From IMG/VR virus record IMGVR_UViG_3300009709_000003, positions 64,001 through 128,000 of that record: 64,000 nucleotides of DNA; one strand, 5' to 3'. The notes under the pieces were generated by a model. That model saw nothing but the letters and a program-made list of their open reading frames with translations, searched no databases and had not been told where the DNA came from. Positions within the stretch are counted from its first letter, which is position 1. Each line of letters starts with the position of its first letter. This DNA is from a virus. Position numbers and translations under genes: made by a program. Positions 12,071 through 44,569 of the stretch are shown here, piece by piece.

Positions 12071-12352
12071 CTAGGCATTGGTCTTTAAAGCTTCGATGCG
12101 TTCTACAATGACTAGTTTCATTGTTTTTAGTGCCCACGAAGTTGTTTTTTCTGCTTCAGCTAAAGCCCATTCCAACTCCTTGATGCGAACATCGCGCACA
12201 TATTCGGTATCGTCGCGGCGCATTTCTTTTTGCAGCACTGCTTCCGCACGTTCACAGCGGTCTTCGAGTTCAATTACGCGCCTACGCCAACTCGCTGGAA
12301 TTTCAGCGGTGTCGCGAGCGTATTCCTGCATTTCATCGCTCAACTTACTCAT
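12071..12352 (-). CDS. Hypothetical coiled-coil protein (KLSDE module)
   Basis: MSKLSDEMQ start with ATGA overlap. Confidence 0.6.
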   Translation of the reverse strand: MSKLSDEMQEYARDTAEIPASWRRRVIELEDRCERAEAVLQKEMRRDDTEYVRDVRIKELEWALAEAEKTTSWALKTMKLVIVERIEALKTNA

Positions 12353-12999
12353 TGATCGTCCCCGTAAAGGGCCACTTCGGCTTGATGAATAATTTCGTTT
12401 AATTGTTTCCACAATTTTTGTTGTTCAAAATTCCATTCAGACTTAATAAGCGCTTCTTGCATGTTCCAGGCTCTGTCTATACACATTAGCAGTTCCATTC
12501 TGTTTCGTTTACTCAACTTTTGCCGACTCATCACTTTACCTCTTCACAGTCAGTGTTAATACGAGTAATACCTTTTTCGCATTTACAGCAAGCGTCTGGA
12601 ATAAGCCAGTCACTCAATTCCGCACAAATGAACTCTGCACCTACCCGGTGGTCTGGCGAGTTTTTTAGGTATTCGCTGCCACTATACCGTGCAACGCGGT
12701 AACGTTTTCCAACCACAAACTTAAGTGCTGCTTCCCGTGCTCTATAGATGTAATCGAACGGCCCGTCAGGTTGAATCGTTGGTAACCTCATGTTACTTCT
12801 CCTCTTTGCTTTCAGGTTGTGGGTCTAAATAATCTAGTGCATCATAAATAGCGTCAAGCGCTTCGTCTACTTGCGGGGTTGTGCGATATGGATAAAGTCG
12901 TTTTTCTGCGTCTATTAGCGCTTTAATGGCACGCATTTTTTGATGACGTACCAAGTGTATAGAATCTTGAACATACTCAAGGTCGATTAAATTACTCAT
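12349..12999 (-). CDS. Three small hypothetical genes (12349..12534, 12531..12791, 12793..12999)
   Basis: Translationally coupled ORFs with RBSs. Confidence 0.55.
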
Positions 13000-13259
13000 T
13001 TTCCACCCCTGAGAATAGCCAAATCCAAAATATCCCTAGAGTAACTACGAGACTCGGAATCCGCATCGTCTACCCATCGTTCCACTATCTGACGAAGGCG
13101 TACGCATTCCGCAAGGTAATCGGCGGTTTCGGTATCTTCACCGACTGGCACCCCTGCAACATACTCCGCTCCCGGTATTTGCCATTTATGTGGCACTGGA
13201 GAAATACCGCTCGCCCACCCTAAAATCTCCTTAGCCGTGCTCAACTTTTTGTCACTCAT
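12996..13259 (-). CDS. Module-A family hypothetical protein
   Basis: KLSTAKEILGWA...ETADYLAECVRLR. Confidence 0.7.
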   Translation of the reverse strand: MSDKKLSTAKEILGWASGISPVPHKWQIPGAEYVAGVPVGEDTETADYLAECVRLRQIVERWVDDADSESRSYSRDILDLAILRGGK

Positions 13260-14239
13260 TTCTTTCCTACCTTCCCTTCAAGGGCGCTAATTTCATGAAT
13301 AAAATCGTCTAAGCTGTTTTCGTTTACTATACGAGGCTGAATTTTTGCCCAATTTTCAAATCGCTCTGCCAACGTTTTCTTTATAGGTACCTTGAATTGC
13401 ACGGTGGCGCGTGCGATTTCAACGCAAGCATCGGGGCGGAAGCTATCACTTAGACAAGCATTCAAGCTGATATGGTTGGGTTTCTTGTTGATAGGCTCCC
13501 ACAACACAACTTCCTTTTCAATAATATCAAATTGCTCACTTGGCTGGTCGTTATTCTGGCTTTCTGCGCCCCTATTCGCTGGAATATCGGCACTTTGAGG
13601 TGCGTCGAGGATTGCTAGTATACAATCCAGCTCATCGCCCTCATATTCTGTGCATCGAGTTTTTCCGTCCAGACATGATTCCCTTACGCGCTCCAGCTTG
13701 GCCAGGGCGGCGTCGCGTTCGGTACGTGCTTCGTTTCTTTCCCGCTGCAAAAGGGCAGCAACTTCGCGTTCGCTGTAAACAGACATCTCTGCCGCAGATT
13801 TTTCACGCCGCACCTCCTCCAATAGAGCAACGTGTATCGCAAGGCTGCGCGCCTGAGCATCGTTGTCGGCGCGGAGAGCGTCAATACACGCTTGCTGGCC
13901 GTGAGCATTAGCGTTTAGGTTCTGCCAATTTTCCAACTCACCCTTTAGCCGCTCGATTTCGTCCATCATGGCGTCGCGTTCCTCAAGCAAATCATCGACC
14001 ACTTTTGGATATCCAGCTTCGGAACAGGCTTCTCGCATACGAACCATTTGTGCGTTCAGCCGCTCATTTTCCGCTTCCAATTCGCGTGCGCGTTCCACCC
14101 ACGCTGTATTGTACGTAACACGTTCTCGTAATTCCTCGTTATCGAATTCTAATGCACGGAGAGCGTCTTGAAAACCAAGTTCTACCGGTGTATTAATCAT
14201 AAATTTAATTAAACGATCGCTCAATTTTTCACTACTCAT
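13256..14239 (-). CDS. Module-B family coiled-coil protein
   Basis: ERDAALAKLERVR...FDIIEKEVVL...EIARATVQFKVP..TLAERFE. Confidence 0.75.
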   Translation of the reverse strand: MSSEKLSDRLIKFMINTPVELGFQDALRALEFDNEELRERVTYNTAWVERARELEAENERLNAQMVRMREACSEAGYPKVVDDLLEERDAMMDEIERLKGELENWQNLNANAHGQQACIDALRADNDAQARSLAIHVALLEEVRREKSAAEMSVYSEREVAALLQRERNEARTERDAALAKLERVRESCLDGKTRCTEYEGDELDCILAILDAPQSADIPANRGAESQNNDQPSEQFDIIEKEVVLWEPINKKPNHISLNACLSDSFRPDACVEIARATVQFKVPIKKTLAERFENWAKIQPRIVNENSLDDFIHEISALEGKVGKK

Positions 14240-14411
14240 TACCGTTCTCCGTCTTCAATAGGGATCCAAAAAGTTTTGCTTCGTTGGCGTAATCGAATTG
14301 GCTAATAGGGTAATGATTGTCATGCTCACCACCTTTAACAGGTTCACCACACATACACGTTTCCTTAGATCTTTCTTCGGATTCGTGCTCAATTTCTTCC
14401 TCTAAAGTCAT
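14232..14411 (-). CDS. Small CMCG/NHxP protein (59 aa, not in ORF track)
   Basis: MTLEEEIEHESEERSKETCMCGEPVKGGEHDNHYPISQFDY; paralog of 29568..29750. Confidence 0.6.
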   Translation of the reverse strand: MTLEEEIEHESEERSKETCMCGEPVKGGEHDNHYPISQFDYANEAKLFGSLLKTENGNE

Positions 14412-14655: not shown

Positions 14656-14673
14656 TTGCAAAATCCGTACCAG
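14656..14673 (-). promoter_or_regulatory. Sigma-54-type promoter
   Basis: Reverse complement CTGGTACGGATTTTGCAA, at the head of the leftward gene run. Confidence 0.7.
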
Positions 14674-15112: not shown

Positions 15113-15316
15113 TTACCCTTGCTCTGCCGTGAAAAAGGCGCGGCGTTGGGCGTCACGGCGGTCAAGTTCCGCGTTGCATCTGCGAACGAACGACCATGCT
15201 TGAGAGACCGTGTCGGCGTCGAGGTATCCGTCTGCCTCCTTAATGCTGTCCAGTTCCGCCCACTGGTTTTCGATTGCTTGCTCAAGTTGCTCGTCTGTCA
15301 TAAAGTTAAAGTCCAT
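15113..15316 (-). CDS. Small acidic hypothetical protein
   Basis: Has its own promoter and AGGAG RBS cassette. Confidence 0.7.
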   Translation of the reverse strand: MDFNFMTDEQLEQAIENQWAELDSIKEADGYLDADTVSQAWSFVRRCNAELDRRDAQRRAFFTAEQG

Positions 15317-15340
15317 GAGAAACTCCTGTTAAGAGGGGAA

Positions 15341-15358
15341 TTGCAAGAGACGGGCCAA
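15341..15358 (-). promoter_or_regulatory. Sigma-54-type promoter in repeated promoter-RBS cassette
   Basis: Reverse complement TTGGCCCGTCTCTTGCAA followed by TTCCCCTCTTAACAGGAGTTT. Confidence 0.8.
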
Positions 15359-15521: not shown

Positions 15522-15555
15522 GTGTACTCCTGAAAGAAAAAGGTTAAGAGGGAAA

Positions 15556-15573
15556 TTGCAAAGGCGATGCCAA
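15556..15573 (-). promoter_or_regulatory. Sigma-54-type promoter cassette
   Basis: Reverse complement TTGGCATCGCCTTTGCAA followed by TTTCCCTCTTAAC. Confidence 0.82.
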
Positions 15574-15578
15574 TCACT

Positions 15579-15785
15579 TCACTCGTGGCTAGGCACATCG
15601 TCCTCGACGAAGTAGTTCTGGGTGTCTTCAATGACGTCGCCGCCATACCATTCAGCACTCCAGCCGCAAAGCTCCTTAAGCTGAGCTGGGGTGAGCTGCT
15701 TCGGGTCCTGGTCAACCGGGATTTCGACGTCTGCATACTCAACGGACTCGACGATTCTCGTGATTGTGATGGTTTTTGTTTCCAT
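15579..15785 (-). CDS. Small acidic hypothetical protein
   Basis: METKTITITRIVESVEYADVEI; cassette RBS. Confidence 0.7.
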   Translation of the reverse strand: METKTITITRIVESVEYADVEIPVDQDPKQLTPAQLKELCGWSAEWYGGDVIEDTQNYFVEDDVPSHE

Positions 15786-15809
15786 GTAAAACTCCTGTTA
15801 AGAGGGGAA

Positions 15810-15827
15810 TTGCAAAGGCGATGCCAA
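15810..15827 (-). promoter_or_regulatory. Sigma-54-type promoter cassette
   Basis: Reverse complement TTGGCATCGCCTTTGCAA (identical to 15556) followed by TTCCCCTCTTAACAGGAG. Confidence 0.82.
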
Positions 15828-15902
15828 TCACTCGACCTGGTCAGACAGGCGAGCAATAAGGACTATCAGTACCAAAAAGAAAAAGGCGACTGGTTGTTCC
15901 AT
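15828..15902 (-). CDS. 24-aa single-transmembrane micropeptide
   Basis: MEQPVAFFFLVLIVLIARLSDQVE; GGGAG RBS; fills the gap between cassettes. Confidence 0.5.
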   Translation of the reverse strand: MEQPVAFFFLVLIVLIARLSDQVE

Positions 15903-17018: not shown

Positions 17019-17516
17019 ATGAAGACGTTCATTGTAACACGCACCACGGTTGAGACTTTTATGATTCAAAGCGAAGACGCAGAAGGCGATATCGCGCACG
17101 GCAACATCGTCCTCGACAACGAAATGCCTACACATAGTGACACTGAAATTGTGTCGCGCGAAATGCTCGACGCGCCTGAGTACCGGGTTGTCATCATCGA
17201 AGAGAACATCGGTTGGAACGAGTTTAAGGGCGATTTTGAGAACGCGGAAGACGAAGCAGAAGCTAAGGAGGCATTCTACAAACACGGCGTTTACGGGTAT
17301 TCTGTCGAGATGCGCACTGTGGTTGACGGGCAATGGGACGACGTTGACAGTTGCTTTGGTTTCTTGGGCAACGAAAGGCAGTACATGTTGGACGTGGCAA
17401 TCGAACACATCCCAAAAGGTGTGGATGCCAAGATTTGGGAAAGTTTTTGCAATGCAGCTGAAGCTACTGAGACCAATGAAACGGTCACTGGTATTGGTGC
17501 GAGTGAAGCAGCCTAA
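17019..17516 (+). CDS. Very acidic hypothetical protein (KTFIVT N-terminus)
   Basis: AGGAG RBS; D/E-rich; VDSCFGF motif. Confidence 0.7.
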   Translation: MKTFIVTRTTVETFMIQSEDAEGDIAHGNIVLDNEMPTHSDTEIVSREMLDAPEYRVVIIEENIGWNEFKGDFENAEDEAEAKEAFYKHGVYGYSVEMRTVVDGQWDDVDSCFGFLGNERQYMLDVAIEHIPKGVDAKIWESFCNAAEATETNETVTGIGASEAA

Positions 17517-17518
17517 CA

Positions 17519-17568
17519 GGACGAAACCGCTTCGGCGGTCTGCTCGTAAAACGGGCACTGACGAGTCC
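17519..17568 (+). ncRNA. Hammerhead ribozyme, type II
   Basis: GGAC-GAAA-CCGC(UUCG)GCGG-UC^-UGCUCGU(AAA)ACGGGCA-CUGACGA-GUCC; predicted cleavage after C17540; RBS AAGGAG follows immediately. Confidence 0.92.
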
Positions 17569-17580
17569 AAGGAGAACGAC

Positions 17581-18381: not shown

Positions 18382-19743
18382 ATGCGATTTAAGGTAGGGC
18401 AAGTCATTCGTAACCTTGATTCTGTCATCCCTCAATTTAAATGGCGGATTGATAGAGTTACAGAAAACGGGTACGTAGTGACGCCCCTGATTTATAAGGA
18501 CATCTACAAAGAACGTTTTCTCTCTGCTCACGACAGATTGGTTTTGGCAGAAGGGAATGGAGACAACAAGTGACAACACTTAAACGGAAATTCCCGCGCC
18601 GGGTGTACGGTAAGCGTGAACACAACTTGATGTTGCGACAACAGGCACTCATGCCACTGACATACAAGCCTTTCGAGCAAGCGATATATAATCAAGGCTG
18701 GCTAGATGCGAAGACGGCCATAGTGGAACAAGAATTGCAGGACATTTCAAACATGTTCACTGACCTGGAAAAGGACAACAAGCAATGAATCCAATTAAAA
18801 ATTACAGTGTAACCTGCAACTGCAAGTGTAACTGCCCAAAGTGTAACAAGAGAAAGTAACATGGAAGACAAACAAGTGAACCATAAAACCCGCAAATTGA
18901 GTGACGAGTTGGAGAGAACCCCAGAATGGGGAGTGTCCACCGGATTCGAAATTCGTACTATTGAAGCCATCCGCAACTTGGAATTTAACCTGCATGAGGC
19001 GCAAAAGGCCGCTGAAGATGCACACTTTTTGCTGACAGCAGAGGTTAAACGAGCAGAATCCGCTGAAGCCCGCATTAAAGAACTAGAGTCCACGTGTATT
19101 AAAGAATTTGAAAAGGGATACGACCAGGCCCTGTCTGAAGTTGGTGTCAAATGGGACGGGAACAAATTTGTAAAGAAAAATGGGGAGTCACATGAGTAAG
19201 TCAAAACTGCTTGATAGTAAACAGAAGATCATCAACTACGTGCAAAAACGACGTGATCGTATTGGTGAGGAACGAGATCTAATAACGAGGTTTGCCGAAG
19301 TACGTAAGTTGGAAGAACAAGCCAAAATAGCACGTCGAGCCTATGAACAACGGTGTGAGGCTACACGACCAGAATTCAATGCTGCTTGGGACCGTGTCAG
19401 TATGGACGCCAAGAAATATTTGAATGCCTTGGTAGCCGGCACGCCCGTAACAGTGGATACGGATGCAGATGAGATGCGGGACAGACTTGTCAAACCTACC
19501 CTTGGTGTGGTAGAATAATCCCATAAATTTCAACTTGGAGGGCACTTGGCGGACAAAGAGTCTGACACACTGCAGTACACCAGCGCAGAGGAGATTCATT
19601 CAGACCTACAAGAAATTAGAAGGAAAATCCAGGAGATCACAGCTAAGCGGCGAGCATTTTTATCCTCGTACCTAAACAAGATTTTTACATCTAACTTAGA
19701 GGAAGAGAAAAATGAAACACAATCCATTCATAGACGCCATTAA
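18382..19743 (+). CDS. Run of small hypothetical genes (18382..18573, 18570..18788, 18861..19199, 19192..19518, 19546..19743)
   Basis: Coupled plus-strand ORFs with RBSs. Confidence 0.55.
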
Positions 19744-20853: not shown

Positions 20854-20883
20854 ATAAATCGTAACATCTGTCTGGAGTGGTCT

Positions 20884-26837: not shown

Positions 26838-27131
26838 ATGACAAGAACTAAGTTAGATACGGCGGCGGATGTTTTGCGTTGGGCTGGAATGGGCTTTAAA
26901 GATATGGGCGACCTGGGTGACTACGAAACCGCCGCCTACATTGCGGATGCTGTGACGATGTATCGACAGCGGCTAATAGACCACCCTGCCACGACTAAAC
27001 GCGTTCTAGAAAACGAGCGGCTGCGCCAAGCATTCGATGCGCTAGAAAAGCTTGGCTACGACAGTGGCGACTTGCTAGTACTGGAAGTTTTACAGAGCGT
27101 ACGCAACACAATGAAAGACAACAATAAGTAA
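26838..27131 (+). CDS. Module-A family protein
   Basis: KLDTAADVLRWA...ETAAYIADAV...ENERLRQAF. Confidence 0.7.
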   Translation: MTRTKLDTAADVLRWAGMGFKDMGDLGDYETAAYIADAVTMYRQRLIDHPATTKRVLENERLRQAFDALEKLGYDSGDLLVLEVLQSVRNTMKDNNK

Positions 27132-28335: not shown

Positions 28336-29121
28336 ATGAACAAGAAAGAAGAACTTTTACGGTGGTTAAAGACAACCAGCAATTTCCAAGCGATTGGCAT
28401 GCCTGTAAGTATGCACGAACTCATCAAAGAGGCACTCGCTGAGGAGTTTAAAGCAGGATGTTCGGAAAGTGCGACAGCACTTAATCCCGAAATCGAGAAG
28501 TTGCAGCGTGAATTAAAGTCGCGTGCAGACGCCATCAAAGAGCGCGACGCTGCGCGTGCGGAGTTGGCGGCAGAGAAACGGCGTGCTGACCGTTTGGCGG
28601 CGGGCGAAGAAATTGAAAGCGATTATCTGGTCGCTTCCGACCATAAAATACTTGGACTTATTGCCGAACGCGACGAAGCCCTATCCAAACTGAGGCAACT
28701 GCGTGAATACGTTGAGACACGTGGTCAGTATTGGGCTTGGCGTACTGATCTACTTGCAATTCTTAATCCGCCGCGTGAAACCGTGCATCAGTATTGTGAG
28801 AAACACGAGGACTGCGCCTGTTTGGACAGCATCGCTAACATTGAAAGTACATCACCCACCAAAGTTGCATATGATCTTGTTGAGCGCGAAGTGGTTCTGG
28901 TGAAGGATCAATACAGTTCAAGTGCACAAGTTGTAGACTACCCATCTCATTTCGCCGAGATGAGGAAACATTTATGGCTAGGTGGGATCGCTAAAGTAAC
29001 TTTTAAAGTGCCACGTAAGAGTTTAGCAGAGCGTTTGGAGGCCGCAGTGGAATCCGGTTCAACGGAAGAATTTGCTGAAGCCATTAAAGCGGTACGTGAA
29101 TTGGAAAGTAAGGTAAAGTAA
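28336..29121 (+). CDS. Module D+B mosaic protein
   Basis: KEELLRW...LIKEALAEEFKAG then ERDEALSKL...YDLVEREVVL...FKVPRKSLAERLE. Confidence 0.7.
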   Translation: MNKKEELLRWLKTTSNFQAIGMPVSMHELIKEALAEEFKAGCSESATALNPEIEKLQRELKSRADAIKERDAARAELAAEKRRADRLAAGEEIESDYLVASDHKILGLIAERDEALSKLRQLREYVETRGQYWAWRTDLLAILNPPRETVHQYCEKHEDCACLDSIANIESTSPTKVAYDLVEREVVLVKDQYSSSAQVVDYPSHFAEMRKHLWLGGIAKVTFKVPRKSLAERLEAAVESGSTEEFAEAIKAVRELESKVK

Positions 29122-29206: not shown

Positions 29207-29567
29207 TGACTGGATGGAGGACTGACATGATCAAAAAGTGGAGTGACGAGGAAATTAGTAAAGTGTGTGAAGAAGCACTTAGGACTTATGACCATCCACT
29301 TATAGTGGGACAGCTCGCCAGCATGCTGCTAGATGCACGGAGCGAGATTTCGGCTTTAAAGAAGCTATGTGAATATCAAGTGATAGCAGAGATGGTTTTT
29401 CAAAATGCACGTAATGATGCGGCACTGGAAGCCTTAACCAGTTTTGCGTTTTATGTGGCTCAAGAATGTGCAACTCCATTGGCCAACGAAGCTATATGTG
29501 AATTGCATCGTCGTATTAATGCTCTTAAGGGGAATACAAAAAGCCTATGACTGGATGGAGGATTGAC
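29207..29567 (+). repeat. 20-bp RBS-containing direct repeat TGACTGGATGGAGGA(C/T)TGAC (29207-29226, 29548-29567)
   Basis: 19/20 identical; each copy is followed directly by a start codon. Confidence 0.85.
29227..29550 (+). CDS. Module-C family protein
   Basis: KWSDEEISKVCEEA...MLLDARSEISALK...ALEAL. Confidence 0.7.
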   Translation: MIKKWSDEEISKVCEEALRTYDHPLIVGQLASMLLDARSEISALKKLCEYQVIAEMVFQNARNDAALEALTSFAFYVAQECATPLANEAICELHRRINALKGNTKSL

Positions 29568-29750
29568 TTGAACGAGGAAAAGCAAAACTTGACGCATGCT
29601 AGTCTAGAAGAAGAGGCTGAGCAGGATGCAAAAGATTACTGCATGTGTGGTGAACGCATGGACACCCACAGTGTATATAACAATCACAGTCCTGTTAGCG
29701 TGTATGATTATACAAAATCACAAGAAAGCGTAGATCATGAGCCTAAGTAA
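29568..29750 (+). CDS. Small CMCG/NHxP protein
   Basis: Paralog of 14232..14411; TTG start after GGAGG. Confidence 0.6.
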   Translation: MNEEKQNLTHASLEEEAEQDAKDYCMCGERMDTHSVYNNHSPVSVYDYTKSQESVDHEPK

Positions 29751-30210: not shown

Positions 30211-30561
30211 GTGAAAGTTAGTACTCTCTTAAAGAAAACGCGTAAAATCATCGCTAAAGAAGAAAATTGGACCAGAGACGCTGACGCTAGAGCCGCTAAC
30301 GGTAACGCCATAGGTGTGCATACCCAGGGAGCGTGCGCCTATTGTGTAGGAGGAGCACTGCAAAAAGCATATGGAGATCATTATTTGATTGGGAACACCA
30401 CATTCTTGAAAGCGGCCAGACTTTTACACGAAGATGCTCAACGTTATGGATTCCAAGGTTTTGTGCATGCCAATGACAGCGCAGCCACCACCCATAAACA
30501 AGTTTTACGGGCTATCGATCGATGTATTGAAGTTGCTAAAAAGGAGGAATTTAATGCATAA
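30211..30561 (+). CDS. DUF6197-like protein
   Basis: WT...YCVGGAL...ND...TTHKQVL; paralog of 36191. Confidence 0.65.
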   Translation: MKVSTLLKKTRKIIAKEENWTRDADARAANGNAIGVHTQGACAYCVGGALQKAYGDHYLIGNTTFLKAARLLHEDAQRYGFQGFVHANDSAATTHKQVLRAIDRCIEVAKKEEFNA

Positions 30562-32044: not shown

Positions 32045-32431
32045 ATGAGTAAACGTGAGTGGACAGACGCAGAACTGAAAGCTGTATGTAAGGAAGCTTA
32101 CGTGCGCGTGCCTGACCGAATGCATGTATATTCTTTCGATCCGCTTGAATGCGCACGTATGGTACTGGATGCCAGAGCGGAAGTTGCGGCCCTGAAGCAA
32201 AAATGCTTTGATCTCCAAGAAGAATTGCAGTGCGATCGTGATGTTATGGCAGACTATGAGAACCGTTTAGCAAGACTACGTGACGGCGACGACATTAAAG
32301 TCGCTCGTATCGAAGGAGCTATTGAAGCCTTAGATTGGGCACAGGAACAAGTCTATGTTGATGGAAGTTATGCCCGTCATAACATCAAAAATCGCATCAC
32401 CGTACTTGAACTAGAAAAGAGCAGCAAATGA
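32045..32431 (+). CDS. Module-C family protein
   Basis: EWTDAELKAVCKEA...MVLDARAEVAALK...IEGAIEALDW. Confidence 0.7.
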   Translation: MSKREWTDAELKAVCKEAYVRVPDRMHVYSFDPLECARMVLDARAEVAALKQKCFDLQEELQCDRDVMADYENRLARLRDGDDIKVARIEGAIEALDWAQEQVYVDGSYARHNIKNRITVLELEKSSK

Positions 32432-32612: not shown

Positions 32613-32936
32613 GTGAAAAACTTTATTAGCAATGTGCTCTCTTTTATGAAGAGAGATGCGACTTCCGATAGTGAAGCGGCTATTCAATCAATTTTATTGG
32701 AAGCCAAAACCCACAGGGACTTGGCAATTATGGTATTACAGGCACGTACGGAGTGCGATTTGCTCAGTGATTTACTTAGAACCGCGTCCAAGCAAGCTAA
32801 GATTGATACCTTGAAGTGGGTCTCTAAGTATTATGGTCATTTTTATTCACAGAATTGGTATGGTAGGACCAAGGACTACTTGAAAACTTATATTGATTTG
32901 CGTATTGGTGATCTAGAAAGAGGCAATGATGAGTAA
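32613..32936 (+). CDS. Module-C family protein
   Basis: MVLQARTECDLL...KIDTLKWV. Confidence 0.6.
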   Translation: MKNFISNVLSFMKRDATSDSEAAIQSILLEAKTHRDLAIMVLQARTECDLLSDLLRTASKQAKIDTLKWVSKYYGHFYSQNWYGRTKDYLKTYIDLRIGDLERGNDE

Positions 32937-33452: not shown

Positions 33453-33689
33453 ATGCCTGTAAGTCGTGCCGATCACTTGAAAAAGGTTCTAGCTTCTTGG
33501 TGGGATAACCGAGACGGTGGTACTTTTGAAAGCAGTTATATACTTGAATTAGTAGACGCGGCTATACAAGAAGCCTATGAAAAGGGGCGATCAAAGCCTC
33601 ATCCCCACATTCACAAATGTGAGGAATTCTTTTATGAACCTAGCACAGAGCGACATCACTGCGTAGACTGTGGGAAGCCAGCGTCATGA
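33453..33689 (+). CDS. Module-D family protein with C-terminal Zn finger
   Basis: SRADHLK...LVDAAIQEAYEKGR...CVDCG. Confidence 0.6.
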   Translation: MPVSRADHLKKVLASWWDNRDGGTFESSYILELVDAAIQEAYEKGRSKPHPHIHKCEEFFYEPSTERHHCVDCGKPAS

Positions 33690-34079: not shown

Positions 34080-35054
34080 ATGAGTAAGAAAAAATTAAGC
34101 GAACGAATTTCTATTATCAATGGTACCTTGGTTCACCTTGACGCCCCATCTACGATAGCACATGTGGACCATATTATGTTAGCGATTTCTCAGTTGGAGT
34201 CCGAAAACGAACGTTTACAGGCTGAGAACGAATATATTGAAAGACACCTCGATGAACTTTGCGAAGCCGCCTTGTACTACATGCGCAAAGAGCGCGATGG
34301 TTTGGAGGAGGAACGTAATCACCTGAGAGCAGCACTTACTATCTCTGACTCGAAACTGTTTGAAGCCGACAAAAAGCTTGCAAACGCTAGTACAACGATT
34401 AACGATCTGATTAAGCAACGAGATGAAGCGCGCACAGAACTAGAAAAATATAAAACGCCAGTTTTTGAAGACGTATTGATGCGTAATCAAGAGCTTACTG
34501 CCGAATTGGCTAGAGTGTTGAAGAAAGATGATCAGCTTCTAAAGCGATTGGCTGAAGTTCTAGAATGGGCCAAATGGGCAGTTAAACCTGGAAGCGTTAC
34601 TATGAATCAGGACATGCATGAGGAAGTAGCGGGTCTTATCAAGAAGATTGAAAGTAATGAGGTGTCTGCGGAAGAATGTGTACAAGGTATTGGTTCGTTG
34701 CTTGGCGAAGATAAAGATTCGTACACTTGGGAAGAAGTATACAACGCCATGGACCCAAACAGCAAACGCTGCAAACCGACAAAATCATCAGTGGATGATC
34801 AAACATATGAAACTGTTCAAGTGCCTGTAACTCTCCGCAGATATGCGAACGGTCGGTGGCAAGTAGATGAGAGTGACCTAGTTCCACAAGGTGACAATAT
34901 AATTGCTGAAGGTGTAGCCACTTTTGCGATCCCTAAAGCTGAACATAAGACACTCGTGGAACGACTGCGTGCAGTTGGTGCACACAACGTTTTTCCTATT
35001 CCTGAAGAATTATTGAATGAAGTTGCCGAACTTGAAAACAAGGTGAAGCAATGA
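34080..35054 (+). CDS. Module-B family coiled-coil protein
   Basis: KLSERI...YETVQVPVTL...IAEGVATFAIP..TLVERL..ELENKVK. Confidence 0.7.
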   Translation: MSKKKLSERISIINGTLVHLDAPSTIAHVDHIMLAISQLESENERLQAENEYIERHLDELCEAALYYMRKERDGLEEERNHLRAALTISDSKLFEADKKLANASTTINDLIKQRDEARTELEKYKTPVFEDVLMRNQELTAELARVLKKDDQLLKRLAEVLEWAKWAVKPGSVTMNQDMHEEVAGLIKKIESNEVSAEECVQGIGSLLGEDKDSYTWEEVYNAMDPNSKRCKPTKSSVDDQTYETVQVPVTLRRYANGRWQVDESDLVPQGDNIIAEGVATFAIPKAEHKTLVERLRAVGAHNVFPIPEELLNEVAELENKVKQ

Positions 35055-35254
35055 GCGACAACAAAAGTAGTAGGGCAGATGAGTTGCGTGAATGGGTAAA
35101 CTGGTACAAGTCGTTACATGGAGCAATTCCTGCACATAAAATCTTTAACTTGGAGCCACTAATCGAAGCTGCGTTGGCCGAAGCACGTGAAGCAGGTCGT
35201 AAGGAAGAAGCAGAAGCGATCTATAAAAACTTTAACGTGATGAGAAGGCTATGA
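35051..35254 (+). CDS. Stand-alone module-D protein
   Basis: SRADELREW...LIEAALAEAREAGR. Confidence 0.65.
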   Translation: MSDNKSSRADELREWVNWYKSLHGAIPAHKIFNLEPLIEAALAEAREAGRKEEAEAIYKNFNVMRRL

Positions 35255-36204
35255 CACTACCGAAACTAGATACAGCTATGGATGTTTTAGATTGGGCGCG
35301 ATGGGCCGATGAAGACTTTGATTCCATGGGAAGGCTAGTAAAAGGCTTAGACGTAGAAACCGCCGAGTATATAGCAGAGTGCATACGACTTCGAAAGTTA
35401 TTTGAAAATGTGGACAGTTGGGCGGGCGCATGGCCTATGTCCTACGATGAGTATGGCCGGCGTATGGAGTATCTGCGTAACTCGATAAAAAGCCCCGACA
35501 GCGACGTAGATTTAAAACTTGAAAGAGATACAAATAAGTGATAATGTACGGTTTGTTATCACTATTTGTAGGGTATGACACCACACCTCACGATTATCAA
35601 TTAGGTAGCAGTCCTGTACACTACGCTGTTGACCTAGAACACAACGTAGTTTGTTACTGGTACGAGTCATCTTTGGGCGCTCCTAGTTTATTCTGTGTAC
35701 AAATGGACCAAAGGGGAAATAGCAAATGAAATCAAAAATTATTAAATGTCTTACTACTCCCCATGGGGTTCTTGACTGGGCGGAAAATGCCTGTACACCG
35801 TCTAATTGGGACGATGAGACAGCGAAATTTATAGCGGAATGCGTACGGTTGCGACTAGCTTTTGAAGCGGCAGAATCGGAAATGCACAATCTACCTCTGG
35901 GTGATGCCAATCGCCAATATGGTGATAGCACGTATAACCATGCCCAACATTGGCTACGTCCATTACGTCAAGCCATTGGCGAGAAATCAAAATGAAGCCA
36001 GACTTGACTACCACAGAAGGCGTCATGTGGGCTTTTAACCACTATGCCGCAAATACTTGGTACAATCAGGAAGAAACACGGAAAACTGCTGCCTATATAG
36101 CGGAATGCGTACGCTTACGCCAGACAATCGATAAAACAAAGCAAATTAGCGAAAACCAAGAGCCTATATTATCAAGTTTAGGAGTGTACAATGCGTCCAA
36201 GTAA
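35251..36204 (+). CDS. Three module-A paralogs (35251..35541, 35726..35995, 35992..36204) plus 35538..35729
   Basis: ETAEYIAECIRLR, ETAKFIAECVRLR, KTAAYIAECVRLR. Confidence 0.7.
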
Positions 36205-39406: not shown

Positions 39407-40157
39407 ACACATCGACGACATTCACACCGAATTTCACCGCGATCAAGGTCTTGATTTTGTTACATCTATTGTAAATCCAGGTGATGTGGACGTTCTTACT
39501 CTTGGTGGTGATATCAAGACTGCAAAAGACACTTGCGACCGTCTTAAGCCATTCACTGACGAATTTCCACATGTGGTGTACGTGCTGGGCAATCATGACT
39601 ACTACGGTGGTTCAGCACAGCAAGTACATGATGACATTCGCGAGTGGGTTGAAACTAACCACGTTTCAAACTTTTACTTTCTTCACAATGAAAGTAAGAA
39701 AATCGACAATGTAACCTTTCATGGTACAACCCTGTGGGTACCTAATCCAGGACCCGGCGCGCATCAAATTATATCCAGACGCATGAATGATTTTGTGCAG
39801 ATTACAGACTTGATTAAAGATCCCTACTGGCTCTACAAGCAAAATGAAGATGCCGTATTATTTCTGGCAGACAATATCAAGGAAGGCGATGTGGTAGTCA
39901 CCCATCATCTGCCATCGGCCCAGCTGATTTCCCCTGAGTATGGTGGGTCAGATACAAATTGTGCTTATCACGACAATTTGGATAACTTGATTTTACGGAC
40001 CAAACCGAAACTGTGGCTCCATGGTCATTCCCATACTTCGGCACAAATCAAAATTGGTGACACCCTGTGTGTACGTAACCCTTATGGATATTTTGTGGAT
40101 GAATATTGGAGTCAAACAAATTCCAACTTCGACTACGATTTGGTGCTAGACGCATAA
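39396..40157 (+). CDS. Calcineurin-like metallophosphoesterase
   Basis: DDIH, GGDI, GNHD, THHLP, HGHSH, NPYGY. Confidence 0.9.
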   Translation: MKIKHIDDIHTEFHRDQGLDFVTSIVNPGDVDVLTLGGDIKTAKDTCDRLKPFTDEFPHVVYVLGNHDYYGGSAQQVHDDIREWVETNHVSNFYFLHNESKKIDNVTFHGTTLWVPNPGPGAHQIISRRMNDFVQITDLIKDPYWLYKQNEDAVLFLADNIKEGDVVVTHHLPSAQLISPEYGGSDTNCAYHDNLDNLILRTKPKLWLHGHSHTSAQIKIGDTLCVRNPYGYFVDEYWSQTNSNFDYDLVLDA

Positions 40158-40426: not shown

Positions 40427-40444
40427 TTGGCACGGAATTTGCAA
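40427..40444 (+). promoter_or_regulatory. Sigma-54-type promoter
   Basis: TTGGCACGGAATTTGCAA, then AGGAG and ATG 40466. Confidence 0.85.
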
Positions 40445-40465: not shown

Positions 40466-41007
40466 ATGTTCCATCGTAACAAGGGTAAGATCTTTCTGCT
40501 GCTAGCCGCTATCGTAATCGATTGGGTCGTATTTGATGGCAAATACCGGAAAGCCCTAGTCGCCAAGATGCGTGGACTTAAGGATAGTACCGTAGAGTGG
40601 TTTCTGTCACACCCTGCCGTACAAGAAGAAGACAAGAAATGAAAACCACGCTGAAAATCTTCGTGGCTTTGTTTGCCCTGGTGGGAATTTTCCTTACCTG
40701 GTTGGTGTGGCCTATCCTACATCTCTTTGGTGTCGTCCTTAAGGCGGCTCCTAGGGTCATGATTATCTTGTTTATGCTTGGACTTGCAACACACGGATAC
40801 CGGGATTTGTTTTCGCTCATCCCTACTGTCTCTCAATGTCAATTGAGCGGCATTTTAATGGTGGCCAGTTTCTTGATTGCTGTATATGCCTTCTTTTCAG
40901 AAAAATTCATGTGGTTTCCTCTGGCATTGATTTTGATGTTGAGTGTGGGCGCGATAGCCGGTACACACGCACGTGATAACAATACATGCCATGCTCAGAA
41001 ACATTGA
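40466..41007 (+). CDS. Two membrane proteins (40466..40642, 40639..41007)
   Basis: One and about four hydrophobic helices. Confidence 0.6.
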
Positions 41008-41018
41008 AAGGTTTTAAC

Positions 41019-41573
41019 ATGCGTAACATTATCCTGATCCTAGCCTTTTGTACTGGTTGTGCTCATGTACCCCTATATAGTCGAGATACCGGCAAGCCTG
41101 ATCATAGGGTATATACTTGCTTGCTTACACAAGCAGAATGTGACCGGGCAGATGTGGCAGCCAAGGTTGTAAACGACTTGGTTGGTCATAAAGTGTTGAT
41201 TCGTGACGATCAAAAGTTTGATTTGGCTATTGTGGCTAATTCTGATAGATTCTTTATGTTTGATAGCCAACCTGCATACCGGGTGAGTGCTAACCAAGTG
41301 GACACATTTATCGAGACATCGTTGGTTGTTAACGACAAGTTTGCCGCATATAACAATGATAATATTGTGGTGTATGTGTCAGCCAATAGCTTAAATGACC
41401 GGCAAGAATCAGTTATGTTTATGCATGAATTCTTGCACTCGCTTGGATTTGGGCATGTAAATAATGCGATATCAGGCATGAACCCTAAGCAGTCAATCGA
41501 CGACCTTGGGTTTACAGAGTATGACTACCAATCTGTACATAACGCTTATAACGGGCTAGACTACACACCATAA
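41019..41573 (+). CDS. Matrixin-like metzincin metalloprotease, lipoprotein
   Basis: HEFLHSLGFGH plus Met-turn (SGMNP); lipobox CTG-C. Confidence 0.8.
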   Translation: MRNIILILAFCTGCAHVPLYSRDTGKPDHRVYTCLLTQAECDRADVAAKVVNDLVGHKVLIRDDQKFDLAIVANSDRFFMFDSQPAYRVSANQVDTFIETSLVVNDKFAAYNNDNIVVYVSANSLNDRQESVMFMHEFLHSLGFGHVNNAISGMNPKQSIDDLGFTEYDYQSVHNAYNGLDYTP

Positions 41574-42454
41574 TGAAAGAGGACCAAATGGGCCACCATA
41601 GACTTGAAGCCGCACAAAACCGCATCGACGACCTTGAAGCCGAGAACAAGCGACTGAAAGATGAATTGAAGGAGCTACGCAATCCTACGAATGTCGGATG
41701 GGCTCAGGTACTCCGTGAGCGCGACGAAGCGTGGACTGCGGCTATAGAGAACGGTAAGTTTATCTACCACATAAGTACCGAACGCGACGCCGCCCTGGCC
41801 AAGCTGGAGAAAGTGCGCGCCGATTTAGAGCGTTTGCGTGCATGCTATGCTGATGTGCACGGTCAACTCGCTTCTGCAGAAGTTGAGCGCAATGACATTC
41901 GCAATACATTGTCTAATGTGAGTAATTGGGCACATGAGCGCGATCGACCAGACTCTACGCACTCCACCGACGGTTTCTTGACCGCTCAAGCTGAGATTCG
42001 TGAGATTCTTGATGCGCCGCCTGGCGTGGTTCAGGTCGATCCTGAGGATTTGCAAGCTACTATTGAAAAATTCAAAAACTCACCGCGTGGATCATCTGGT
42101 GAGTCAAAACGTAAAAGTGCAGAGTGGCTCCTTGGAAAGGAAGACACATCTTACGACATCATCGAACGGGAGGTTGTTCTATGCGGTAATGGCCGTTTCG
42201 TGAATGGCGTAGAGGAGCTGTATGTCTCCGAATCATGCCAAGTCGGCAACGTTGCCGGTGAAATCGCACGCGCCACCGTGCAATTTAAAGTTCCGCGCCA
42301 GGCTAAGGCTAGTTTGGCGGATCGCTTGGAATATTTGCTTCGTACAGGTAAGCAGATGCCCGGTACTGATTCCACCTTGGTAGACGAAGTGCGAACGTTG
42401 GAGGCCAGACAAATGACCCTTTTAAAAGGTGACGAGGAAAATGAGCGTAGTTAG
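41573..42454 (+). CDS. Module-B family coiled-coil protein
   Basis: TERDAALAKLE...YDIIEREVVL...EIARATVQFKVP..SLADRLE. Confidence 0.75.
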   Translation: MKEDQMGHHRLEAAQNRIDDLEAENKRLKDELKELRNPTNVGWAQVLRERDEAWTAAIENGKFIYHISTERDAALAKLEKVRADLERLRACYADVHGQLASAEVERNDIRNTLSNVSNWAHERDRPDSTHSTDGFLTAQAEIREILDAPPGVVQVDPEDLQATIEKFKNSPRGSSGESKRKSAEWLLGKEDTSYDIIEREVVLCGNGRFVNGVEELYVSESCQVGNVAGEIARATVQFKVPRQAKASLADRLEYLLRTGKQMPGTDSTLVDEVRTLEARQMTLLKGDEENERS

Positions 42455-42839
42455 TCCACGTGGTTATTGTAAAGCTTGTTGGCAGGTACCAAAGTCATAC
42501 ACGCAATGGATGGCGATAGCTGCACAATACAAGAACTTGTACCAACTGAGCAGATTGAATGGGGCTCATGAGAACAATATTGAAATGTATTATGATGTAT
42601 GGAAGGCAGCTGTAAAAGAAGCTGACTCATTGCTAGATAAGCTGAGTAAGGCGAAAGAGCTGCGTCAGTGGATACAATCTTTAGGATTCAGTGATGCCCG
42701 TATTGCCAACCGACTTGAACTACTCGAAGCGGCATTTGCCGAAGTATATGCCGAAGGCCGTGAGAGTGTTTGGCAAGATGAGCAGAGAGCAGCTAAAGAA
42801 CGTTCTGACAAGATCAAGAAGGAGCATGGTCTAAAATGA
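42441..42839 (+). CDS. Hypothetical protein with C-terminal module D
   Basis: SKAKELRQW...LLEAAFAEVYAEGR. Confidence 0.6.
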   Translation: MSVVSPRGYCKACWQVPKSYTQWMAIAAQYKNLYQLSRLNGAHENNIEMYYDVWKAAVKEADSLLDKLSKAKELRQWIQSLGFSDARIANRLELLEAAFAEVYAEGRESVWQDEQRAAKERSDKIKKEHGLK

Positions 42840-43717
42840 AATGGCTGTACGACAAATGGCTGGACTGGCAGTGGAAACGCGAACACTCAAAATGGTTGGC
42901 AGAAACAGAAGCTGTCTACTTGTTAAATAGCAAACTCACGTTGTTGATGCCAGACAATAAAGTGGCACAAGAAGTATTTAAATACGCACAGTATGAATAT
43001 CAACGTGCTTTGCAAGTTGACCCAAAATGGAGAAAGAAATGAAACGCGTCTGGAGTGTTAAAGAAGTTGATCAGCTACTCGACGAAATCGCCGAATTACA
43101 AAACAAAATGGTGGTAGACAATCGTCTATTGGATAACTACAAACAGACATTGAAGAATTTAGGCTGCACATTTCGCACGAAGGGTGAACATGTAGGAACA
43201 GTTCTTACTACTCCTTATATTACTCCTTATATTACTCCACCGGACGTTGAGGCTGCCCTGTCGGCAGACCAAATCATAGACACCACCATTAAAACACTGG
43301 AATGGGTGTTGAGTAGGGGTTGGTTTATTAATGGTACACCTGGCCCAATGCAATTAGATCCCGGTGAGATTCGGGATTACATCGAAGAACTTAAGTCCAA
43401 GAAAACGTTGTAAATCCGACCAGAATATCTTCTATATGCTAGAATGAAGCATCAACCACCAAACACATACCACCAAGCAAAGCTAGCAGCAGGCAAAGCG
43501 TACCTTAAGTACATTGAGGCACGTGATTTGGCTCAGTCCTTGCATAATCACACTTGGGAGAAGCGTGTTAGTTGGGCGCTTTATTGTCCAGAGTGTGGTG
43601 AAACCAAGGATTTGCGTATCAAGAAAGATGTTTTAAAATGAGTGAACAGAAGTATCGTGCCCCCTGGCCGAAGTTCAATAAACCATTCATTATTTATAAA
43701 TCCACGAGAAAATCACG

Positions 43718-44569
43718 ATGCAAAATTTAAATACAGTAGAAGAAGTTATTCAATGGGCAAAGCAGCCAGACGAAGAAACCGCTAAGTTCATAAAGGACAG
43801 CATTGAACTGCGGCTCAGTTTTATCAACTTCCTGAAAATGAATCCTCCCTTGGACGCTCCTATGGAAATTTTCTATGGGTCTGATCTAGACACTGTACGC
43901 GAGAATGCTAGATTGCGTGCATATTTTGAACAATGCTGGTTGAGTGAGAATTTTGGCAACCGAGAACGTTATCCAGTGGGAGGACCAGGGATCGTATCAT
44001 TTGCTCACGATTTACGTGATGCAATGAATGCTAAACTTGAGGACGAAACTTCTCAAGATAAGGAGTCGTTGACAATGACTAGGAAACCTAACAAACATAT
44101 CGGCTCCAGCTTTGAGTACTTCCTTGAAGAGGAAGGTATGTTGGAGGAAGTAAACACAGCAGTAAAAATTGATTTAGAAGTTTCACCTACACATGCAACG
44201 GAGACGGTGGCCAAGATTCTTATTAACCCACCGCAATCTACTAACCACCAAATCTTTTCGGAAAATGACATCAATGATGTATGGGGAGAAACCGATGTGT
44301 CTCAACCCTACTTTCCAGATCGCGCCTATCAAGCATGTATTTTGGTGTTAGAGGCTCGTGCAGAACGCGACACATGGAAGTACCGATGCGAACAACTTAC
44401 TGTCGCCCCCAACCCAGAGTCCGATTATATCGACGGACAAATTGATGCACTTGAGTGGGTGAGCAACGAGGCGGGTGATGAAGAAGGTTATAAGTGTGGA
44501 GACACGCTTATGGATATCGACAGGCGAATTGTTCAACTACGCAAACAAAAAGAGGCACTTCCTAAATGA
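43718..44569 (+). CDS. Mosaic protein: module A + HIGSSF..FLEEEG segment + module C
   Basis: LNTVEEVIQWA..ETAKFI; KHIGSSFEYFLEEEGMLEEV; LVLEARAERD...IDGQIDALEWV. Confidence 0.7.
   Translation: MQNLNTVEEVIQWAKQPDEETAKFIKDSIELRLSFINFLKMNPPLDAPMEIFYGSDLDTVRENARLRAYFEQCWLSENFGNRERYPVGGPGIVSFAHDLRDAMNAKLEDETSQDKESLTMTRKPNKHIGSSFEYFLEEEGMLEEVNTAVKIDLEVSPTHATETVAKILINPPQSTNHQIFSENDINDVWGETDVSQPYFPDRAYQACILVLEARAERDTWKYRCEQLTVAPNPESDYIDGQIDALEWVSNEAGDEEGYKCGDTLMDIDRRIVQLRKQKEALPK

What the first reader, a model, noticed from the sequence alone, without database searches (positions are those of the whole stretch)
12071..44569. Combinatorial 'Lego' family: about 20 accessory proteins assembled from five reusable modules
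Seen: module A (KLxTAxxVLxWA...ETAxYIAECVRLR) at 12996, 26838, 35251, 35726, 35992, 43718. Module B (ERDxALxKL...YDxxExEVxL...FKVPxxxLAERLE) at 13256, 28336, 34080, 41573. Module C (WxDxE..VCxEA..VLxARxE..ALxW) at 29227, 32045, 32613, end of 43718 and partly 43039. Module D (RADELRxW..LIEAAxAExxxxGR) at 35051, 33453, start of 28336 and end of 42441. Module E (KLSD/ExL) at 12352, 14239, 18861, 34080. Modules occur alone or fused (D+B, E+B, A+C) with variable inserts between them. Inference: an actively shuffled, diversifying effector repertoire, possibly anti-defence decoys or adaptors. I recognise no family for any module.
Basis: seen in the sequence. Interest (0 to 1): 0.78.

Follow-up and report, generated by a model that had tools for sequence, protein, structure and literature searches.

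The report
Modular orphan protein families in a phage
A 160-kb uncultured phage carries about 16-19 small proteins built from a handful of previously undescribed sequence modules that recur alone, as neighbours and fused; they seem to come from an old, repeatedly duplicated gene cassette, and their function is still unknown.

Summary
In this complete 160.7-kb DTR phage, window 12-45 kb encodes 16 proteins securely built from four mutually unrelated modules. These are A (6 copies here, 2 more elsewhere in the genome), Bc (4), C (4) and D (3-4). An N-terminal KLS[DE] head ('E') is secure only on B proteins. Three further assignments are weak: C in 43039, D in 28336, and E in 18861/12352.

Leave-one-out HMMs and shuffles exclude chance and coiled-coil composition. 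No module matches Pfam, PHROGs, NCBIfam, PDB sequences or known folds. Bc has only 9 representatives among 1.84 billion proteins.

The same families lie next to each other in other uncultured phage contigs, which add new architectures: stand-alone E-coil, and C-head+coil+Bc. Adjacent A and C genes in one phage correspond to the A+C fusion here. The order B-(D)-A/C recurs four times. I therefore read the set as an old, four-fold duplicated cassette with gene fusion, fission and head swapping.

Paralogs are only 21-35% identical, so the shuffling is mostly ancient. Two perfect 35-nt and 26-nt tracts shared by two B paralogs do indicate recent micro gene conversion.

Function is unknown. A non-enzymatic coiled-coil scaffold with small helical adaptors for host takeover or anti-defence is inferred from context only.

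The parts
12996..13259 (-). Module A protein (87 aa). Its start overlaps the stop of B gene 13256-14239.
   Evidence: A-HMM E=1e-24 / 3e-22; alignment.
13256..14239 (-). B protein (327 aa): E head (14015-14239), coiled coil with ERDAA motifs, AILDAP motif, Bc domain (13262-13549).
   Evidence: Pfam hits are only sub-threshold coiled-coil families.
14232..14411 (-).
   Evidence: phmmer E=4e-7 against 29547-29750.
12071..12352 (-). Candidate stand-alone E-coil protein (93 aa, starts MSKLSDE). Weak assignment.
   Evidence: E-HMM 105/2000 shuffles reach its score; C-HMM 7/2000.
18861..19199 (+). Candidate stand-alone E-coil protein (112 aa). Marginal assignment.
   Evidence: E-HMM E=0.02-0.04; 0/2000 shuffles reach its score.
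26838..27131 (+). Module A protein (97 aa), subtype with an insert and a second ENERLRQAF helix.
28336..29121 (+). B protein (261 aa): D-like head (28330-28539, weak), coiled coil, Bc (28852-29118).
   Evidence: Bc iE=4e-25. D head: leave-one-out E=0.83 but 0/2000 shuffles reach its score.
29227..29550 (+). Module C protein (107 aa).
   Evidence: Leave-one-out C-HMM E=4e-8.
29547..29750 (+). Family F protein (67 aa).
32045..32431 (+). Module C protein (128 aa). Modelled as four helices.
   Evidence: Leave-one-out E=9e-7; AlphaFold2 pLDDT 82.7.
32613..32936 (+). Module C protein (107 aa).
   Evidence: Leave-one-out E=8e-4.
33453..33689 (+). Module D protein (78 aa) with a Cys/His-rich C-terminal tail.
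   Evidence: Leave-one-out D-HMM E=2.5e-3, top non-training hit.
34080..35054 (+). B protein (324 aa): E head, coiled coil, a stretch resembling A helix 1 (VLEWAKWA, residues ~157-187), Bc (34788-35051).
35051..35254 (+). Module D protein (67 aa). Start overlaps the stop of B; stop overlaps the start of A.
   Evidence: Leave-one-out E=7e-6.
35251..35541 (+). Module A protein (96 aa).
35726..35995 (+). Module A protein (89 aa).
35992..36204 (+). Module A protein (70 aa).
41573..42454 (+). B protein (293 aa): short N-terminus, coiled coil, Bc (42134-42418).
   Evidence: Bc model pLDDT 78.8: three long strands plus helices.
42441..42839 (+). Protein with a unique N-terminal part and module D at its end (42636-42836).
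   Evidence: Leave-one-out E=2.3e-3.
43039..43413 (+). Diverged C-like protein (124 aa). Weak assignment.
   Evidence: Leave-one-out E=0.2; 0/2000 shuffles reach its score.
43718..44569 (+). A+C fusion (283 aa): A at 43718-~44056, acidic linker, C at 44249-44560.
   Evidence: A iE=4e-16 and C iE=3.5e-32; C leave-one-out E=3e-5. It is the only long A-bearing protein found.
13691..13725 (-). 35-nt tract, 100% identical to 41775-41809(+). Encodes TERDAALAKLE.
   Evidence: Chance of identical codons is 4.5e-6.
41775..41809 (+). Partner of the 35-nt conversion tract.
13386..13424 (-). Second tract: 39 nt at 90% identity with a 26-nt perfect core, matching 42256-42294(+). Encodes EIARATVQF.
   Evidence: Chance is 1.6e-4.
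30211..30561 (+). DUF6197 paralog that closes cluster 2. Its twin at 36191-36541 closes cluster 3.
   Evidence: 36% identity, E=3e-22. DUF6197 is assigned on the identical contig L007.
26420..26435 (+). -24/-12 (sigma-54-type) promoter motif upstream of the cluster that begins with A 26838. Similar motifs lie at 14657-14672(-) and 40428-40443(+).
   Evidence: Regex scan.

Best explanation
What it is (shown):
- A set of at least six co-occurring orphan protein families (A, B, C, D, the E head, and a sixth family F) in a lineage of uncultured phages.
- In this phage the set forms four clusters with a recurring order:
  - F-B-A on the minus strand at 12-14.4 kb
  - A...(D)B-C-F...DUF6197 at 26.8-30.6 kb
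  - C,C,D...B-D-A-x-A-A-DUF6197 at 32-36.5 kb
  - B-xD-x-C'-x-A+C at 41.6-44.6 kb

How it arose (inferred):
- An ancestral multigene cassette (B, D, A, C) was duplicated several times long ago.
- The copies then diverged by fusion of neighbouring genes (A+C), fission, and replacement of the N-terminal head of the B protein (E, D-like, C-like or none).
- Short gene-conversion tracts at conserved motifs still pass between paralogs.

How it probably works (inferred, not shown):
- The proteins are non-enzymatic.
- B is a coiled-coil oligomeric scaffold ending in a small beta/alpha domain.
- A, C and D are small helical partner or adaptor domains that act with B.
- Each cassette copy would provide a variant specificity towards a host factor during takeover or counter-defence.
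For: Real, protein-level families:
- BLAST with composition correction, leave-one-out HMMs and shuffles all support them.
- A-motif codons differ at synonymous sites among paralogs and among other phages, so selection acts on the protein.

Not one family: hhalign finds no relationship between modules.

Co-occurrence in independent phages:
- L001 has B, a homolog of 12531-12791 and A.
- L005/L006 has E-coil, B, a D-like 78-aa gene (5/2000 shuffles), A' and C as consecutive genes, plus DUF6197 and patatin.
- L012 has a stand-alone E-coil immediately upstream of a C-head+coil+Bc protein.
- L013 has an E'+coil+Bc protein.

Fusion and fission:
- Adjacent A' and C genes in L005 correspond to the single A+C ORF 43718 here.
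- Translational coupling is suggested by overlapping stop/start codons B-A (13256-13259), B-D (35051-35054) and D-A (35251-35254).

Cassette duplication:
- Clusters 2 and 3 both end in a DUF6197 paralog.
- Family F flanks B in clusters 1 and 2.

Age: Bc identities are 21-35% within the genome and 26-48% to other phages. Codon identity outside the tracts is 39%.

Ongoing exchange: 35-nt and 26-nt perfect tracts occur only between 13256- and 41573. Other phages encode the same peptides with different codons.

Non-enzymatic, helical or coiled:
- Pfam gives only sub-threshold coiled-coil hits.
- The C model is four helices. The Bc model is three strands plus helices.

Context:
- An ArdA homolog lies at 17137-17889.
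- The region is the plus-strand block of small ORFs between the structural and replication blocks.
- Sigma-54-type promoter motifs lie upstream of three of the clusters.
Against: - No experiment or homology bears on function.
- The Bc tree is unresolved, so the timing and order of duplications cannot be established.
- Nearest-paralog relations are not congruent between families. B 13256- is closest to 41573, while its neighbour A 12996- is closest to 35251. This fits either shuffling or unequal rates, and weakens a simple whole-cassette duplication model.
- Gene order is similar across clusters but not identical.
- The D head of 28336, the C-like 43039 and the D-like L005 gene are weak assignments.
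- Only fragments of the related phages are available.
Confidence: 0.62

Rival explanations
1. Free combinatorial ('Lego') domain shuffling that is active now. Under this reading the modules are independently mobile units, recombined at conserved linker motifs to generate new effector architectures.
For: - B proteins carry different heads: E, D-like, C-like or none.
- Perfect 35/26-nt tracts sit at conserved motifs and could serve as recombination sites.
- Nearest-paralog relations are incongruent between neighbouring genes.
Against: - Paralogs are 21-35% identical and synonymous sites are saturated.
- Apart from the two tracts, no DNA-level similarity exists between module copies.
- Only three or four distinct fused architectures exist among about 30 proteins seen in all phages.
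- Gene order is largely conserved, which free shuffling would erase.
Confidence: 0.2
2. The families are regulators or accessory factors of the phage's own transcription or DNA metabolism, for example modulators of a sigma-54-dependent programme or nucleoid-type DNA binders. On this view they are not anti-host effectors.
For: - Sigma-54-type -24/-12 motifs lie upstream of three of the clusters.
- An HTH_8 (Fis-type) gene lies immediately upstream of B in L005.
- Weak structural rows link the Bc model to phi29 p6-type double-strand-binding proteins.
Against: - The p6 match is insignificant: Foldseek E=0.13 with TM 0.17, and VIA Z=2.4 with rmsd 4.7 over 54 residues.
- Module proteins are acidic to neutral (pI 4.5-6.7), not basic as most DNA binders are.
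- Four to eight diverged paralogs are unusual for a core regulator.
- No HTH or other DNA-binding family is detected.
Confidence: 0.1
3. Artefact: the similarities are due to coiled-coil or low-complexity composition, or to chance short motifs in a long list of small ORFs.
For: - The N-terminal halves of B proteins are coiled coil and attract sub-threshold coiled-coil Pfam hits.
- Module E is only a 5-residue motif. KLS[DE] occurs 3 times in about 50,600 residues, close to chance expectation overall.
Against: - A, Bc, C and D are not coiled-coil repeats.
- Composition-corrected BLAST, leave-one-out HMMs (left-out members are the top non-training hits, E 4e-8 to 2.5e-3) and self-shuffles (0/2000) all hold.
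- Homologs with the same motifs occur in other phages.
Confidence: 0.03

Closest known systems
Paralogous multigene families and mosaic accessory ('early' or 'hyperplastic') regions of large phages, e.g. T4-like hyperplastic regions and the paralogous head-protein families of phiKZ-like phages (my own knowledge, not tested here)
   Same: Clusters of small, fast-evolving genes of unknown function. They are expanded by duplication inside one phage genome, are often translationally coupled, and sit apart from the structural and replication modules.
   Different: Here the families are new: no Pfam, PHROG or NCBIfam match. At least five of them travel together across phages. They show gene fusion/fission and head swapping between families, not just duplication within one family.
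Anti-defence gene islands around ArdA/Ocr-type genes in phage early regions and plasmid leading regions (my own knowledge; ArdA presence tested)
   Same: The neighbourhood contains an ArdA homolog. The proteins are small, acidic to neutral and non-enzymatic.
   Different: - No module matches ArdA or any described anti-defence family.
- pI values (4.5-6.7) are not those of DNA mimics.
- The clusters lie downstream of sigma-54-type promoter motifs rather than typical early sigma-70 promoters.
- No functional test exists.
Rosetta-stone / composite gene families (fusion of interacting neighbours) and polymorphic effector systems with swapped heads (my own knowledge)
   Same: - Separate neighbouring genes in one genome (A' and C in L005) are one ORF in another (43718).
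- A conserved C-terminal part (coil+Bc) is combined with alternative N-terminal heads.
   Different: There is no toxin or enzymatic domain, no immunity gene and no secretion signal. The heads are short helical units that also exist as free proteins.
phi29 p6 histone-like double-strand DNA-binding protein (PDB 8pw4)
   Same: It is the top PDB Foldseek row for the Bc model, and several p6-type phage proteins appear in the BFVD list.
   Different: The scores are at noise level: E=0.13 with TM 0.17, and VIA Z=2.4. The order of secondary-structure elements and the charge do not argue for homology.

Membership tests
Any curated protein family (Pfam-A, PHROGs v4, NCBIfam 20) | Profile match at or above the curated or significant threshold | tested here: not met
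   - Ten module proteins were scanned in each library.
- Pfam gave only sub-threshold coiled-coil hits (best 20.9 bits against a 31.9 cutoff).
- PHROGs gave E>=0.0035 on coiled-coil stretches.
- NCBIfam gave SMC-type coiled-coil noise.
Composite (domain-shuffled) gene family | Each module is significantly similar across proteins and not explained by composition | tested here: met
   Leave-one-out HMM E from 4e-8 to 2.5e-3 for A, C and D members. Bc iE<=4e-25. Shuffles 0/2000.
Composite (domain-shuffled) gene family | The same module occurs alone and in at least two different fused contexts | tested here: met
   - C: alone (29227, 32045, 32613, L005), fused after A (43718), and as the head of a Bc protein (P0021).
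- E-coil: alone (L005 161 aa, L012 99 aa) and fused to Bc (13256-, 34080, P0004, P0019, P0022).
-.
Composite (domain-shuffled) gene family | Recent or ongoing recombination between copies | tested here: inconclusive
   Two perfect tracts (35 nt and 26 nt) link 13256- and 41573. There is no other DNA-level similarity, and paralogs are otherwise saturated.
ArdA/Ocr-type DNA-mimic antirestriction proteins | PF07275 match or a strongly acidic DNA-mimic composition | tested here: not met
   No PF07275 hit for any module protein. pI values are 4.5-6.7, and up to 8.8 for some. A separate ArdA gene lies at 17137-17889.
phi29 p6-like double-strand DNA-binding proteins | Shared fold with a solved p6 structure (8pw4) | tested here: inconclusive
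   Foldseek E=0.13, TM 0.17/0.21. VIA-align Z=2.4, rmsd 4.7, 54 aligned.
Tad1 (anti-Thoeris sponge) | Shared fold over the whole domain | tested here: inconclusive
   Best VIA row is 7uav_A with Z=5.1, rmsd 3.5 and 48 aligned. It covers only the C-terminal helical hairpin (model 58-106), tied with many unrelated hairpins.
DUF1380 / YgaA-type plasmid leading-region proteins | Sequence or feature similarity above chance | tested here: not met
   These are the nearest named Atlas clusters, but scores are 0.78-0.82, a level that a third of shuffled proteins reach. No Pfam PF07128 hit at E<=0.1.

The most novel reading that the evidence does not exclude
The families form a self-assembling, combinatorial adaptor system.
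- Coiled-coil B scaffolds carry exchangeable heads (E, D or C).
- They dock free A, C and D proteins through a shared Trp-anchored helix (the motif ..VLxWA.. recurs in A, in the middle of B, and in C and D).
- The hypervariable loop between the two conserved A helices would be the target-binding surface.
- Short identical nucleotide tracts at conserved motifs would let the phage exchange parts between cassettes.
- The outcome would be a diversifiable panel of inhibitors of host defence or takeover targets.
Probability: 0.1. Interest if true: 0.8.

Novelty: new variant of a known kind. Interest (0 to 1): 0.48.

Why it matters
If the families do act together, they define a previously undescribed multi-protein system of a poorly known lineage of large environmental phages. 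The Bc domain has only nine cluster representatives among 1.84 billion proteins. No copy was found in 185,579 prokaryote species genomes by motif scan.

The system combines three things: conserved neighbourhood, Rosetta-stone fusions and micro gene conversion. Together these form a compact natural example of how phage accessory proteins are rebuilt from parts. They also give concrete pairs (B with D, A with C) to test for binding.

Without a host or an assay it remains a well-documented set of orphan families rather than a new mechanism.

Tried and rejected
Searches for relatives:
- IMG/VR pattern scans with B and A alignments: pattern matches but no confirmed relatives.
- INPHARED phages: megablast of 26-45 kb and tblastn of A and B proteins gave no match.
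- Degenerate DNA pattern for YIAECVRLRQ: 0 hits in genome contigs and 0 in metagenome contigs.
- 'Longer' protein search for fused A forms: only the window's own 43718.
- L007 is 100% identical to window 16838-37131, so it gives no independent information.

Searches for known folds or families:
- PDB sequence profiles for A and C: only designed repeats, keratin and coiled-coil noise.
- Bc model: Foldseek PDB found nothing at E<=0.001. VIA-align against 48,161 chains gave best Z 4.8, helical hairpin only. BFVD best E=7e-3, to uncharacterised phage proteins. On a second look, p6 scored Z 2.4 and the Tad1 hairpin Z 5.1.
- C model: Foldseek PDB and ESM Atlas shape search gave nothing above TM 0.47.
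- Atlas language-model search for A and Bc: best 0.89 and 0.82, below the level of a lead.

Other tests:
- Complex prediction of the A and C halves of 43718: no verdict (score 0.01). This is neither support nor evidence against binding.
- Bc phylogeny: star tree with no supported forks.
- hhalign between modules: none related. Best was Bc helices against the E head, P=7e-4 and probability 26%.
- A lipoprotein-like pair (28121-28339 and 35538-35729) looked similar by eye but was not significant by phmmer.
- The neighbours of B in L001 (55 aa and 82 aa) do not match D or C.
- Papers: no description found. DUF6197 appears only in a genome announcement. One related sample, ERZ12293582, is a Sphagnum peat-moss metagenome.

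Full report
**Setting.** The window is bases 64001-128000 of a complete 160,708-bp virus record with direct terminal repeats.
- The flagged interval lies in a block of mostly plus-strand small ORFs, between a minus-strand structural block and a minus-strand replication block.
- Recognisable genes in or near the interval:
  - an ArdA homolog (17137-17889)
  - a helicase (20848-21897)
  - a calpain-type protease (36782-37549)
  - two metallophosphatases
  - an RNase T-type exonuclease (45009-45593)
- The phage has no close cultured relative. Megablast of 19 kb finds nothing, and its SbcC-like protein is about 24% identical to Herelleviridae proteins.

*Module A.* It is a helix (L.T..VL.WA), a loop of 8-35 residues, and a second helix (ETAxYIAECVRLRQ).
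- A profile recovers the six named copies and two more outside the window, with a clear gap to the next ORFs.
- The codons of the conserved A motif differ at synonymous sites between copies and between phages, so selection acts on the protein.

*Module B.* It is a full architecture: head, coiled coil with ERDAA motifs, a Trp helix, an AILDAP motif, and a ~90-residue C-terminal domain (Bc). The four named proteins share it.

*Modules C and D.* I used leave-one-out profiles against all 2,670 stop-to-stop ORFs of the genome. In each supported case below the left-out member was the best non-training hit.

| Module | Member | Leave-one-out E | Shuffles reaching its score |
|---|---|---|---|
| C | 29227 | 4e-8 | |
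| C | 32045 | 9e-7 | |
| C | end of 43718 | 3e-5 | |
| C | 32613 | 8e-4 | |
| C | 43039 | 0.2 (fails) | 0/2000 |
| D | 35051 | 7e-6 | |
| D | 33453 | 2.5e-3 | |
| D | 42441 | 2.3e-3 | |
| D | head of 28336 | 0.83 (fails) | 0/2000 |

The two failures both beat every one of 2000 shuffles of themselves, so they are weak but not empty.

*Module E.* It is a five-residue N-terminal motif.
- It is secure as the head of B proteins 13256- and 34080 and of B homologs elsewhere.
- It is marginal in 18861 and not significant at 12352.

*Other points.*
- Profile-profile comparison shows the modules are not versions of one another.
- Two DUF6197 paralogs belong to the same clusters.

**Known families.** None applies.
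- Pfam, PHROGs and NCBIfam give only sub-threshold coiled-coil noise.
- PDB sequence profiles give noise.
- AlphaFold2 models are confident enough to search with. Bc has pLDDT 78.8 (three long strands, then helices). C has pLDDT 82.7 (four helices).
- Neither model matches a solved or predicted fold above background.
- A recurrent weak signal to phi29 p6-type DNA binders did not survive a second look (Z 2.4).

**Distribution.**
- An exhaustive HMMER search of 1.84 billion cluster representatives with the Bc profile found nine proteins. Four are the window's own.
- Module A has about ten further homologs, all in metagenome assemblies.
- A degenerate DNA pattern for its core motif hits nothing in 185,579 species genomes or in JGI metagenomes.

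The external contigs are informative:

| Contig | Content |
|---|---|
| L001 | B, a 79%-identical homolog of 12531-12791, and A |
| L005/L006 (53 kb) | E-coil, B, a D-like gene (5/2000 shuffles), A' and C as consecutive genes, plus DUF6197 and patatin |
| L012 | A stand-alone E-coil gene directly followed by a protein with a C-type head, coil and Bc |
| L013 | An E'+coil+Bc protein |
| L002-L004 (41-kb temperate phage) | A only |

So the families travel together, and modules do occur alone and in different fusions in independent genomes.

**How the repertoire arose.** In the window the families form four clusters with a recurring order (B, then D, then A and/or C).
- Clusters 2 and 3 both end in DUF6197. 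F flanks B in clusters 1 and 2.
- Stop/start overlaps link B-A, B-D and D-A.
- The A+C protein 43718 consists of a complete A, an acidic linker and a complete C. This is exactly what fusing the adjacent A' and C genes of L005 would give.
- These facts favour an old cassette that was duplicated and then remodelled by fusion, fission and head replacement.

Evidence that the divergence is old:
- Bc paralogs are 21-35% identical, no closer to each other than to other phages.
- The tree is a star.
- Identical residues outside two short tracts use the same codon in 25 of 64 cases, roughly the codon-usage expectation.

Against that background two islands of perfect nucleotide identity stand out between 13256- and 41573:
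- 35 nt encoding TERDAALAKLE, and 26 nt encoding EIARATVQ(F).
- Chance probabilities are 4.5e-6 and 1.6e-4.
- Other phages encode the same peptides with other codons.
- Micro gene conversion is the simplest reading. It shows that paralogs still exchange sequence at conserved motifs. Those are also the places where heads could be swapped.
- Nearest-paralog relations of neighbouring genes are not congruent, so a pure block-duplication model is too simple.

**Function.** Nothing here shows it.
- The proteins lack enzymatic, membrane or secretion signatures. They are acidic to neutral and helical or coiled.
- They sit in an accessory region with ArdA, downstream of sigma-54-type -24/-12 motifs at 14672(-), 26420(+) and 40428(+).
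- My working model, an inference only, is a coiled-coil B scaffold with small helical partners. The cassette copies would provide different specificities for host takeover or counter-defence.
- A complex prediction for the A and C halves of 43718 gave no verdict and is not used either way.

**Verdict.**
The 'no known family' statement holds.
- 'Actively shuffled effector repertoire' is only partly supported. Modularity is real, but most of it is ancient, cassette duplication explains much of it, and the effector role is untested.
- This is a new, very rare set of co-occurring phage families showing a known kind of evolution.

Noticed in passing
window 14232-14411(-) and 29547-29750(+): A sixth small paralogous family (F), with shared CMCGE...H..NH.P.S..DY, sits next to B genes in two clusters. 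It is probably a metal-binding mini-protein. phmmer E=4e-7.
   Followed up: partly
window 13691-13725(-) / 41775-41809(+) and 13386-13424(-) / 42256-42294(+): Perfect 35-nt and 26-nt identities, in inverted orientation and 28 kb apart, inside otherwise saturated paralogs. The tracts are GC-rich (about 69%) in a 44% GC genome. Recombination between them would invert the intervening segment.
   Followed up: yes
window 14657-14672(-), 15572(-), 15826(-), 16105(-), 16362, 16975, 17898, 20837, 26420, 40428 (+): Ten matches to a sigma-54-type -24/-12 motif (TGGCAC-N5-TTGCA). Three lie upstream of module clusters. Several sit in ~35-nt repeated intergenic units at 15312-15346, 15543-15578 and 15781-15832.
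   Followed up: partly
window 30211-30561 and 36191-36541: Two DUF6197 paralogs (36% identical) each close a module cluster. A DUF6197 gene also lies in the related contig L005.
   Followed up: partly
C-termini of A proteins, e.g. window 12996-13025(-); L010 396-425; L005 4229-4258: The recurrent C-terminal tail ...KGGxK is encoded by AAGGGGGG-type sequence 8-10 nt before the overlapping start of the next gene. This apparent protein motif is probably shaped by the downstream ribosome-binding site.
   Followed up: partly
window 10735-11325(-) and 11380-11982(-): Tandem paralogs of 196 and 200 aa (37% identity, E=2e-40) with weak PVL_ORF50 and winged-helix hints, just downstream of module cluster 1.
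   Followed up: no
window 36782-37549, 38774-39406, 39396-40157: A calpain-family cysteine protease with a lipoprotein-like N-terminus, and two adjacent calcineurin-like metallophosphatases, lie between module clusters 3 and 4.
   Followed up: no
module proteins generally, e.g. 34080 residues ~157-170, 35051 residues ~8-20, 32613 residues ~60-72: A Trp-anchored helix (..[LV][LR][ED]W[AV]..) recurs in A, in the middle of B proteins, and in C and D. It occurs 11 times per 54 Trp in module proteins against 14 per 571 elsewhere. The pattern was defined post hoc and the copies are not independent.
   Followed up: partly
window 40986-41573 and 46482-46973: A weak paralog pair (20% identity over 171 aa, E=2e-5) of lipoprotein-like proteins. 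One lies directly upstream of B 41573.
   Followed up: no
L012 10664-12019 and L008 6508-7622: Contigs carrying B or A homologs also carry dGTP_diPhyd_N and NT5C nucleotide-metabolism genes and patatin. This suggests that the phages holding these families form one broader lineage.
   Followed up: no
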